The position numbers and the translations under genes are program-made. The notes under the pieces were generated by a model. The model was given only the letters and a program-made list of their open reading frames with translations, searched no databases and was not told where the DNA came from. A stretch of 64,000 nt of DNA from the human T2T-CHM13v2.0 reference genome, Homo sapiens: assembly GCF_009914755.1 (NCBI RefSeq), contig NC_060925.1; one strand, 5' to 3'. Positions 21,301-23,789 of this stretch are shown here, piece after piece (position 1 is the stretch's first letter; every line of letters starts with the position of its first letter).

Positions 21301-22189
21301 TTTAAAAAATATTATTTGTCCCATTAAGAAAGTTCACCCTATTCCAAGTTTGCTAGGAGTTTTTAGAATAGAATGTTGAATTTTATCAAATGCTTTCCTC
21401 TGTTGAGATTACCATATGATTTTATTTTTTATTTCATTAATGTGCTGACTTAAATTGATTGAACTAAAAAAAACCCTACTTGGCTTTGTTGTATTATCAT
21501 TTTTGCATAACATTGGATTGGGCTTGTTAATATTTTATTTATGATTTTTATATGATCTTGAGAGAGATTGCTCTGACAATAATACCTTTGCCAAGTTGTT
21601 GTATCAGGGTTATTCTGGCCTTATAAAGTTAACTCACCTTTTCTGTGTCTAGAAAAATTTGTAGAAGATTGATAATATTTAATTCTTAAATATGTGGAAG
21701 AACTAACCAGTGAAGCTATCTGAGCCTAGAGATTAATGGAATGCTTTAAATTAGAGATTTAACTTTTTTTTAATAAATATAGATTATTTTCTACTTATTC
21801 TTTTGTCAAAAGAGTGTAGGAGTTTTTAGAAAATAAATTTGGCAATTTTATTTAAACTTTAACATTTATTGCCATAAAGTTATTCATAATATCCTCTCAT
21901 TATCTATCTTTTCAAAAAGTATGCTTTTTAAAAAAGGGTAAAAAATGTATGTTGTAATATACTCTTTTTTATAACTAGTTATCCTCTTTCTCTCTCTCTT
22001 TGATCAGTCTTGCTAGATGTTTATTCATTTTTAATCTAATCATTTTTGCTTTATTTTCTCTATTGTATTTTTTCATTTCGTTATTTTCTGCTCTTTTTTT
22101 TAAATCTCCTTCCTTTTACTTCTTGAATTAATTACTTATATCACTGAGTTTCGGCCTTTTAAAATTTCTTTTCTAATATGTGCATTTAA

Positions 22190-23035
22190 CCCATTTTCCA
22201 TTTGCCCCAAGAATACTCACTAGTGGCACTTGCGGTTGCAGCATTTACCCTGAGATAAAATGGTGTGACAAGAAGGAGGTGACAATGTTGTCAACATTCC
22301 ACAATATACTGTGATTGAAGTAGACAACAGAAATGGAAAGAAAACTAAGAAGCCATATGTCACTGTGGATTATAACGAGAATATGGGAGCAGTGGACTTG
22401 GCTGATCAGATGCTCACTTCTTATCCAATGGAGCACAAAAGGCACAAGGTTTGATATAAGAAATTCTTTCACCACCTTCTAAACATTGCAGTGCTGAACT
22501 CCTACATCAAGAAGGACAATCCTGAACACACGATGAGCCATGCAAACTTCAGAATGACCTTGATGGAAAGAATGCTGGAAAAGCATCACAAGCCAAGGCA
22601 ACAACGTCTCTGAGGTCCTCCGTGTTCTGCTGGTGTCACATCTCTTCGCCTGTCTGGAAGACATTTCCCCAACAGCATGCCACCAACATCAGAGAAACCG
22701 AATGCAGCTGGTGGCTGCAAAGTTTGCTGCTGGCACAACGACGAGAATGCCAGATCACCTTTTGTGCAGAATGTGATGTTCTGCTTTGTGGTGTTGTGTG
22801 CTTTGAAATTTACCACATGAAAAAAAAGTTATTAAATAGTGATCATCATATACATTTCTGTTACATGAGGATTAGTGACCAGTTCTGTTTAGAAATAATT
22901 CTAAGAACAGTTTTTATATTTTATTTTCACATTGAAAATCAGTCAGACTTCCTTCACTCTCAAAGAGCATATTTACATAAAAAGAAATGAGCACTGGCAG
23001 CAAGCTGCCCTTTTTTTTTTTTTTCTGAATGGGAA
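22190..23035 (+). mobile_element. Internally deleted piggyBac DNA transposon (MER75/PGBD4 family)
   Basis: TTAA at 22186-22189, then the MER75-type left end cccattttccatttgccccaagaatactc...tttaccctgagataa; right end cacattgaaaatcagtcaga...gagcactggcagcaagctgc-(T)n-ctgaatgggaa. Confidence 0.92.
22258..22835 (+). pseudogene. PGBD4-like piggyBac transposase C-terminal pseudogene fragment
   Basis: Hand translation [80 protein letters not shown]../FCAECDVLLCGVVCFEIYH closely matches the PGBD4 C-terminus as I recall it; stops at 22452 and 22611, at least two frameshifts. Confidence 0.92.
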
Positions 23036-23789
23036 GGATACACATTTTCATCTAAGCCTAATTTAGCAGCATCCTGCAAATTTTGTATATTATGTTTTAT
23101 TATAATTCAATACAAAATATTTTCTAATTTCATTTGTGACTTATTCTTTGACACAATGGCCATTTAGAAATATTTTGCATCATTTCTAGTTTTAGGGGTT
23201 TTCTATTTAGTCTTTTTGTTATTGATTTCTAGGTATAAAACAGTGACATCAGAGGAGATATTCTGTATGACTCTAATTGTTTGGAAGTTGTTGAGATGTG
23301 TTTATGGTCTAACATATTGCCAAGTTTGATAAATGTTCTATGTACACTTAAAAAGAAGGTGTATTCTGTCATTGCTTTCACTTGCAGTGAACTAATTTGT
23401 CAATTAGTTCCAATGTGTTATTTGTGTTATTCAAATCTTAATCTTTTCTTACTGATATTTTTGTCAGGCAATACGTCAATTATTAAGAGAGTTCTGTTAA
23501 TATTTCTATGATTGTAGATTTATTTCTCCTTTTACTTGTGTCAATTTATATTTCATACATTGTGAAGCTATGCAGTTGAGTTCATTTTAGTAAGCGCAAA
23601 TTATTTCCTTATTTCATGAAATAGACTTTTAAATTTTTATCAATGTGTTTGCCTTAAAGCCTACATTGTCTGACTTTGGCATGACTACATAAATTTTTTT
23701 TTAATGTTTGCATCATATATTTTTAAAAATTGTGGCAGTAGCTACTTAGCACTTACTCTTCTAGAGTGCCAAAGCATTCTACTGAGTGC

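What the first reader, a model, noticed from the sequence alone, without database searches (positions are those of the whole stretch)
22186..23040. Long piggyBac deletion derivative: MER75 ends plus ~190 codons of PGBD4-like transposase
Seen: TTAA, then ~68 bp of left end joined directly at ~22258 to transposase coding sequence. That sequence keeps the [12 protein letters not shown] motif (Asp codon at 22395) and the C-terminal Cys-rich domain (CKVC...CAEC..LC...CFEIYH), followed by the right end. Known: MER75 MITEs derive from the piggyBac element domesticated as PGBD4, and YNxxMGGVDxxD holds the third catalytic Asp of piggyBac transposases. Inference: at ~850 bp this is longer than the MER75 consensus I recall (~0.5 kb). 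It looks like an intermediate between the autonomous element and the MITE, and is useful for reconstructing the ancestral transposase. It has a TIR and no poly(A) tail, so it is a DNA-level copy, not a processed pseudogene. It may already be annotated as one of the PGBD4 pseudogenes.
Basis: partly seen in the sequence, partly recalled or inferred. Interest (0 to 1): 0.8.

Follow-up and report, generated by a model that had tools for sequence, protein, structure and literature searches.

The report
Decayed PGBD4-type piggyBac deletion copy (PGBD4P8)
This is a dead, internally deleted copy of the ancient piggyBac transposon that gave rise to the human PGBD4 gene; it is already catalogued as pseudogene PGBD4P8 and is an ordinary genomic fossil.

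Summary
Window 22186-23038 carries TTAA, a 69-bp piggyBac left end, and a junction at 22258/22259. Next come about 190 decayed codons matching PGBD4 residues 385-585 (71% identity), then the 3' non-coding part and a worn right end. The element is not new. RefSeq annotates 22258-23043 as PGBD4P8, and the PGBD4/MER75 link is in print.

A whole-genome search found 15 loci with this coding part: PGBD4 itself plus 14 broken copies. These fall into three deletion classes, A (5 copies), B (5) and C (4). The window copy is class B. Its exact junction recurs on chr4, and chr2, chr5 and chr17 carry a variant 15 bp or more shorter. The flanks of these copies are unrelated. The deletion therefore came first, and the shortened element was then moved by a transposase supplied in trans.

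The ~0.5-kb MITE keeps 5' sequence, including PGBD4 codons 1-45, that class B lacks.

This copy has two stop codons, two frameshifting deletions and one in-frame deletion. Eight paralogues of the repeat it landed in show an unbroken site there. About 9-11 bp at the right junction, including the second TTAA, were lost later.

Whether a Dfam/Repbase consensus already covers the full length could not be tested. Interest is low.

The parts
22186..22189 (+). Left target-site copy, TTAA.
   Evidence: Read. In paralogues of the surrounding old repeat the site is uninterrupted in 8 of 8, and reads TTAA in 5 of 8.
22190..22258 (+). piggyBac left end: a TIR starting CCCATTTTCCATTTG plus the subterminal region, ending in GAGATAA.
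   Evidence: It is homologous to the left end in the PGBD4 locus (L003 87-165) and to many MITE left ends (32 left-only matches among 40 scored).
22258..22259 (+). Internal deletion junction, GAGATAA|AATGGTGTGAC. It joins L003 ~165 to ~1501 with 1-2 nt (A/AA) of microhomology and removes about 1335 bp, including PGBD4 codons 1-384.
   Evidence: The same junction is in the chr4 copy (L002). chr2, chr5 and chr17 carry a shorter variant.
22259..22834 (+). Decayed coding remnant matching PGBD4 residues ~385-585: the end of the DDE domain with the third Asp (22395-22397), plus the Cys-rich C-terminal domain.
   Evidence: Defects relative to PGBD4: a 1-nt deletion near 22305, TGA at 22452-22454, a 6-nt deletion near 22506, TGA at 22611-22613, and deletions totalling 19 nt near 22751-22758.
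22835..23038 (+). 3' non-coding part, right subterminal region with the family T-run (23010-23024), and a worn right TIR (23025-23038).
   Evidence: It is homologous to L003 2104-2172 and 2759-2878 and to the right ends of other copies and of MITEs.
23039..23440 (+). Flank: an older interspersed repeat into which the element inserted. The left part of that repeat lies before 22186. About 9-11 nt at the right junction (last TIR base, second TTAA, a few flank bases) are missing.
   Evidence: The first look found 302 candidates and the 40 scored were 66-86% identical. In 8 of 8 fetched paralogues the sequence runs uninterrupted across the site.

Best explanation
The stretch is a fossil, non-autonomous piggyBac element of the lineage that was domesticated as PGBD4.

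An autonomous element lost about 1.3 kb between its left subterminal region and codon ~385. The junction has 1-2 nt of microhomology, as expected from abortive gap repair or end joining (inferred). The shortened element kept both ends. It was cut and pasted into TTAA sites by a transposase supplied in trans (inferred from the copy pattern). This left five class-B copies in the human genome.

The window copy landed in a TTAA inside an older repeat and has decayed neutrally since then. It now has two stop codons, two frameshifting deletions, one in-frame 6-nt deletion and a small deletion that removed the right TTAA. It can neither encode a transposase nor be mobilised today. It is the RefSeq pseudogene PGBD4P8.
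For: Homology to PGBD4:
- 84% DNA identity over L003 1501-2172 and 86% over the right end.
- 71% protein identity, E 2e-78.
- Pfam DDE_Tnp_1_7, E 2.4e-14.

Left end and junction:
- The left TTAA and TIR were read.
- chr4 has the same junction, and chr2, chr5 and chr17 have the shorter variant.
- Between the window locus and the other four class-B loci (1.5 kb of flank each side for chr4, chr2 and chr5; about 1 kb on the left side for the chr17 locus), homology ends at the element boundaries. These are separate insertions, not duplications.

Inventory:
- Searches (13 of 13 candidates scored; 15 of 15 scored) give 15 loci in all: PGBD4, 5 class A, 5 class B and 4 class C.

Insertion site:
- 8 of 8 paralogues of the flanking repeat are uninterrupted at the site, and 5 of 8 read TTAA there.

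Neutral decay:
- Differences from PGBD4 by codon position are 22/189, 20/191 and 28/191.
- The tree is star-like, with internal branches of 0.016 or less and support of 0.80 or less. The terminal branch is 0.098 for this copy and 0.058 for PGBD4.

Literature (passages read):
- MER75 and MER75B derive from PGBD4 and have not moved since the human/chimpanzee/rhesus split (PMC2268245).
Against: - The right TSD is absent, and in this copy the two TIRs share only 6 perfectly complementary bases. Transposition of this particular copy therefore rests on the left end, the paralogue sites and the sister copies.
- Class membership is not recovered by the substitution tree. The grouping rests on the junctions alone.
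- Trans-mobilisation and the repair origin of the deletion are inferred, not shown.
- No primate genomes were available to date the insertion directly.
Confidence: 0.93

Rival explanations
1. A full-length element inserted here and was deleted in place, so this is a private one-off deletion.
For: Internal deletions of resident transposons do occur. This copy did suffer later small deletions.
Against: The identical junction GAGAT..AATGG.GTGAC is in the chr4 copy, which has unrelated flanks. Three further copies share the same left breakpoint region.
Confidence: 0.03
2. It is a processed (retrotransposed) pseudogene or a DNA duplicate of the PGBD4 gene.
For: RefSeq names it a PGBD4 pseudogene. 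It matches only PGBD4 exon sequence.
Against: - A transposon left end with TTAA sits directly 5' of codon ~385.
- There is no A-tail on the coding strand.
- The 3' limit is the transposon right TIR.
- The two Alus of the PGBD4 locus (L003 2173-2757) are absent.
- Homology to the PGBD4 locus does not extend into the flanks.
Confidence: 0.01
3. It is a direct intermediate on the path from the autonomous element to the abundant ~0.5-kb MER75 MITE.
For: It shares both ends with the MITEs and is longer than they are.
Against: The MITEs checked (5 of 5: L015-L019) contain L003 197-466. About 50 genomic matches cover PGBD4 residues 1 to about 45. Class B lacks this sequence. Lost sequence cannot be regained.
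Confidence: 0.02
4. The fossil has been co-opted, for example as a regulatory element or part of a non-coding RNA.
For: There is no positive evidence. PGBD5 ChIP peaks on MER75-type repeats are reported in one cell line (10.1101/2025.07.31.667870, passages read).
Against: - Substitutions are near-uniform across codon positions.
- Regional divergence tracks CpG content.
- RefSeq lists no functional element here (hub annotation).
- The terminal branch is as long as those of the other copies.
Confidence: 0.03

Closest known systems
PGBD4 (chr15; L003:346-2103, 585 aa), the domesticated transposase of this lineage
   Same: It has the same left end, C-terminal third of the ORF, 3' non-coding part and right end. 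DNA identity is 84-86% and protein identity 71%.
   Different: PGBD4 keeps an intact 585-aa ORF. The window copy lacks codons 1-384 and is broken. The PGBD4 locus carries two inverted Alus before its right end, and its right TIR is followed by AAGG rather than TTAA.
Other PGBD4-type deletion copies in the human genome (classes A, B and C of this report; presumably the other PGBD4P pseudogenes)
   Same: Class B on chr4, chr2, chr5 and chr17 has the same architecture as the window copy. All 14 copies share the C-terminal coding part and the ends.
   Different: Class A joins L003 390 to 1476 and is about 1.1 kb. Class C joins 166 to 1683 and is about 0.68 kb. Sub-class B2 lacks a further 15 nt or more at the junction. 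Which copy bears which PGBD4P number was not available.
MER75, MER75A and MER75B (Repbase/Dfam piggyBac MITEs; 475, 93 and 114 hg19 annotations, PMC4625184 Table 1, passage read)
   Same: They share the terminal sequences and the TTAA target, and are derived from PGBD4 according to PMC2268245.
   Different: The ~0.5-kb MITE (493-514 bp by the coordinates) keeps 5' sequence and no C-terminal coding part. A ~250-bp MITE keeps ~32 bp of left end plus the right 190 bp. Assigning these two forms to the names MER75, MER75A or MER75B is my inference. No consensus library or consensus length was available.
PGBD3 / MER85 and its pseudogenes (PMC2268245)
   Same: It is a parallel case: a primate piggyBac domesticated as a gene, with MITEs and a few decaying pseudogene copies.
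   Different: It is a different lineage. PGBD3 matches PGBD4 at only 29% identity (chr10 match; the gene name is my inference from its position in ERCC6, recalled).

Membership tests
piggyBac superfamily transposon | Insertion at TTAA with TTAA duplication | tested here: inconclusive
   The left TTAA is present. The target site in paralogous repeats reads TTAA in 5 of 8. The right copy has been deleted in this element. Sister copies: chr2 has TTAA on both sides, chr4 has TTAA on the left and within TTTTAAAT on the right, and chr5 has decayed copies.
piggyBac superfamily transposon | Short TIRs beginning CCC and ending GGG | tested here: met
   The left end is CCCATTTTCCATTTG. The right end is ...AATGGGAAGGA, which is worn. 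The family right end...CTAAATGGGAAAAGGG, is seen in the other copies.
piggyBac superfamily transposon | DDE_Tnp_1_7 transposase with a C-terminal Cys-rich domain | tested here: met
   Only the last 66 profile positions of DDE_Tnp_1_7 are present (E 2.4e-14). The Cys-rich domain is visible by eye and by alignment to PGBD4, but zf-Tnp_2 scores below its cutoff.
PGBD4/MER75 lineage | Closest homologue is PGBD4, and the ends are shared with the PGBD4 locus and the MER75-type MITEs | tested here: met
   The next paralogues are only 26-29% identical to PGBD4.
Repbase/Dfam consensus MER75, MER75A or MER75B (full-length match) | End-to-end alignment to one consensus | not testable with these tools
   No repeat library is on hand. 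No consensus lengths or sequences were found in the passages and supplements searched.
Processed pseudogene | 3' poly(A) on the coding strand, long variable TSD, and limits that match the mRNA | tested here: not met
   There is no A-tail. The 5' limit is a transposon end plus TTAA. The T-run is a family feature.
RefSeq PGBD4P8 | Overlap with the curated pseudogene span 22258-23043 | tested here: met
   The span comes from the hub annotation given with the finding. It begins at the junction found, and ends 5 nt past the right TIR.

The most novel reading that the evidence does not exclude
Three independently formed deletion forms of this transposon have left breakpoints within 2 bp of each other, directly after GAGATAA(C) at L003 165-167:
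- Class B1 joins there to L003 1501.
- Class C joins there to L003 1683.
- The ~0.5-kb MITE has a 33-bp gap starting there.

This could mark a mechanistic hot spot. One possibility is the inner edge of the transposase-bound left end, where repair synthesis stops after excision. In that case these fossils would be a natural record of how piggyBac MITEs arise in primates.
Probability: 0.25. Interest if true: 0.35.

Novelty: already known. Interest (0 to 1): 0.12.

Why it matters
It matters little in itself. The locus is a curated pseudogene, and the family relationship is in print.

The useful points are about annotation. PGBD4P8, and by structure the other 13 PGBD4-like fragments, are transposed deletion derivatives of the ancestral transposon. 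They are not duplicates or retrocopies of the gene. PGBD4 is the only copy found in this assembly with the central two-thirds of the ORF. The nested deletion classes with a shared left breakpoint are a small curiosity for people who study how MITEs form.

Tried and rejected
- Hairpin at the left end as the cause of the recurrent breakpoint. DNA folds of four left ends gave z-scores of 0.01, -1.82, 1.65 and -0.22. There is no support, although these are decayed copies.
- Long (~75 bp) TIR. A local alignment of the left 100 nt against the reverse complement of the right 100 nt of the window copy scored 13. Shuffles averaged 13.8.
- Shared right flank with the PGBD4 locus. Both read GGGAAGGA..TAC, which looked like homology beyond the TIR. 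The paralogue comparison shows the window's TACACATTTTC is the old repeat's own sequence, so the resemblance is coincidental.
- Lower divergence of the first 180 coding bases (K2P 0.10-0.14 against 0.23). On the same nine rows it tracks CpG count (1-4 against 7-8) and the indel-rich Cys region. I rejected it as a sign of constraint.
- Naming the flanking old repeat. Pfam scans of six reading frames of the flanks found nothing. My recollection that it resembles a LINE-1 ORF2 tail is untested.
- Consensus lengths for MER75, MER75A and MER75B. None were found in passages of five papers or in two supplement searches. One paper id was not held.
- PGBD4P8 in print. The two papers that hold the term and the seven that hold PGBD4P were seen as search listings only, and none is about its structure.
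- Resolving the classes with a substitution tree failed because the tree is star-like.

Full report
**What is at the coordinates**

TTAA lies at 22186-22189 and is followed by a piggyBac-type left end, CCCATTTTCCATTTG....

A 105-nt probe across the proposed junction was searched against the window's own assembly (T2T, G000). Of 65 candidates, 40 were scored. Among those 40, 32 matches cover only the left half (query 1-53) and 5 cover only the right half (52/53-105). Three cross the junction: the window itself, a chr4 locus (85%) and a chr5 locus (76%). The homology break is therefore at window 22258/22259.

Downstream, the translation matches the 585-aa PGBD4 ORF, which I read from the chr15 locus (L003:346-2103). 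The match has 114/161 identities, E 2e-78. Read codon by codon in the PGBD4 frame, 145 of 203 positions are identical, covering residues 385-585.

Pfam finds the last 66 positions of DDE_Tnp_1_7 (E 2.4e-14). zf-Tnp_2 scores only 17.1 bits, below its cutoff of 24.

The Asp codon at 22395-22397 aligns with D447 of the T. ni piggyBac chain 6x67_C. That D447 is the third catalytic Asp is recalled, not tested.

**State of the copy**

Relative to PGBD4 the window copy has these defects:
- a 1-nt deletion near 22305;
- TGA at 22452-22454;
- an in-frame 6-nt deletion near 22506;
- TGA at 22611-22613;
- deletions totalling 19 nt near 22751-22758, which split the Cys-rich domain between two frames.

Differences from PGBD4 are spread almost evenly over codon positions: 22/189, 20/191 and 28/191. 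This is what neutral decay predicts. Neither strand has any other long ORF; the longest is 154 aa, and it is the shifted C-terminal frame.

**Relation to the PGBD4 locus**

Mapping every copy onto the chr15 locus gives this picture of the window element:
- It equals L003 87-165 (left end) joined to 1501-2172, which is the ORF from codon ~385 plus 69 nt of 3' sequence.
- It then continues with L003 2759-2878 (right end).
- The apparent second gap (L003 2173-2757) is not a deletion in the window. The two halves of that segment match the same places in other loci in opposite orientations, and they match many unrelated sites. I read this as two inverted Alus inserted in the PGBD4 locus; the name Alu is my inference.

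The window element therefore has one internal deletion of about 1335 bp. The junction reads GAGATAA|AATGGTGTGAC. The parental sequences are ...GAGATAAC TCG... and ...CTGAAATGGTGTGAC.... This gives 1-2 nt of microhomology.

**Is the junction private or shared?**

It is shared.
- The chr4 copy (L002) aligns without a break from TTAA to the right end at 80% identity, and it has the same junction.
- The chr2 (L004), chr5 (L005) and chr17 (L020) copies join the same left end 15 nt or more further into the ORF: CCCCAAG|AAGAAGG....
- Between the window locus and the other four class-B loci (1.5 kb of flank each side for chr4, chr2 and chr5; about 1 kb on the left side for the chr17 locus), homology stops at the element ends. 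These are separate insertions.
- The left TTAA is intact in 4 of 5 class-B copies.
- Among the 4 copies that have a right end, TTAA is readable in 2 (chr2 and chr4), decayed to CTAA in chr5, and absent in the window.

**Full inventory**

Two searches in which every candidate was scored give 15 loci with this coding part (13 of 13; 15 of 15):
- PGBD4 itself.
- Class A, five copies: L003 ~94-390 joined to 1476 (chr20, chrX, chr6:48.96M, chr1:94.52M, chr5:37.63M).
- Class B, five copies.
- Class C, four copies: left end joined to 1683, junction GAGATAAC|ACACAAGG (chr7, chr13, chr10, chr6:147.83M).

A protein search with PGBD4 found no second locus covering residues 47-368. It found only the distant paralogues at 26-29% identity and about 50 short matches to residues 1 to about 45. 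That search warns that weak matches may be missing.

**Why it is not a step towards the MITE**

The matches to residues 1-45 lie in the abundant ~0.5-kb element (493-514 bp by the coordinates). In 5 of 5 examples fetched (L015-L019), that element consists of:
- the left end;
- a 33-bp gap directly after GAGATAAC;
- L003 197-466;
- the last ~160 bp.

Class B lacks 197-466, so it cannot be the ancestor of that MITE.

A second MITE of ~250 bp has ~32 bp of left end, a short palindrome and the right 190 bp. This structure was read in L021. The other five loci share the same ~230-255-bp repeat with L021, and none of the six matches the PGBD4 left end.

Which of these forms Repbase calls MER75, MER75A or MER75B could not be established.

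**Insertion site**

The right flank belongs to an older interspersed repeat. The first look found 302 candidates, of which 40 were scored, at 66-86% identity. I fetched eight paralogues. All eight run uninterrupted across the site, reading ...CATTTAATGCTATACATTT... Five of the eight have TTAA there.

The window reads ...GCAT TTAA [element] ...GGGAAGGA TACACATTTTC. So the left boundary is exact. On the right, about 9-11 nt are missing: the last TIR base, the second TTAA and a few flank bases. This explains the absent right TSD.

**Age and phylogeny**

A FastTree tree of all 15 rows is star-like. Two of those rows are partial copies; none was dropped. Internal branches are 0.016 or less and support is 0.80 or less. 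Terminal branches are 0.075-0.166 for the fossils, 0.098 for this copy and 0.058 for PGBD4.

K2P distance from the window copy is 0.146 to PGBD4 and 0.200 to chr4. This fits one burst of transposition followed by independent decay. At a recalled rate of 2.2e-9 per site per year the burst was roughly 45 My ago.

This agrees with passages stating that PGBD4 is primate-restricted and that MER75B has not moved since the human/chimpanzee/rhesus split (PMC2268245; PMC4625184).

**Mechanism**

Shown:
- the structure of the element;
- the shared junction;
- the independent insertion sites;
- TTAA targeting;
- the decay.

Inferred:
- the deletion arose by interrupted repair or end joining at microhomology;
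- the shortened element was mobilised by the ancestral PGBD4-type transposase acting on the retained ends.

**Novelty**

RefSeq already annotates 22258-23043 as PGBD4P8 (hub annotation). The derivation of the MER75 families from PGBD4 is published.

PGBD4P8 appears in two papers, and PGBD4P appears in seven. I saw these as search listings only, and none concerns its structure.

The one mildly new point is that the left breakpoints of classes B1 and C and of the MITE fall within 2 bp of each other. Folding gave no support for a hairpin as the cause.

Noticed in passing
L003 165-167 (PGBD4 locus); window 22252-22259: Three independent deletion forms start within 2 bp of each other, right after GAGATAA(C): class B1 (joined to 1501), class C (joined to 1683) and the ~0.5-kb MITE (a 33-bp gap). 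This looks like a recurrent breakpoint.
   Followed up: partly
L003 2173-2757 and 2879-2895 (chr15 PGBD4 locus): The PGBD4 locus carries two inverted Alu-like insertions between its 3' non-coding part and its right end. Its intact right TIR is followed by AAGG, not TTAA. This fits the published remark that PGBD4 is no longer neatly flanked.
   Followed up: partly
G000, about 50 loci (e.g. C18:64723648-64723782): The abundant ~0.5-kb MITE of this family still contains recognisable PGBD4 codons 1 to about 45 (63-78% identity). Many of these stretches have no stop codon.
   Followed up: no
L021-L026 (e.g. G000:C20:1691786-1692036): A ~250-bp MITE form has ~32 bp of left end, a short palindrome made from an inverted copy of the 3' non-coding sequence, and the right 190 bp. 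The structure was read in L021; the other five loci share the same repeat.
   Followed up: partly
L020 (G000:C17:43805800-43808800): This is a fifth class-B copy. It is interrupted by Alu-like insertions and is cut off at about L003 1744. Its junction is a further 7 nt shorter than those of chr2 and chr5.
   Followed up: partly
window 21989-22189 and 23039-23440: The element sits inside an older interspersed repeat (302 candidate copies, 66-86% identity). The family was not named, and Pfam found nothing in its frames.
   Followed up: partly
L006 (chr20) against L003: The chr20 class-A copy has an Alu-like insertion within a few bp of the site where the PGBD4 locus has its own. This looks like independent hits on the same A/T-rich spot, but shared descent was not excluded.
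   Followed up: no
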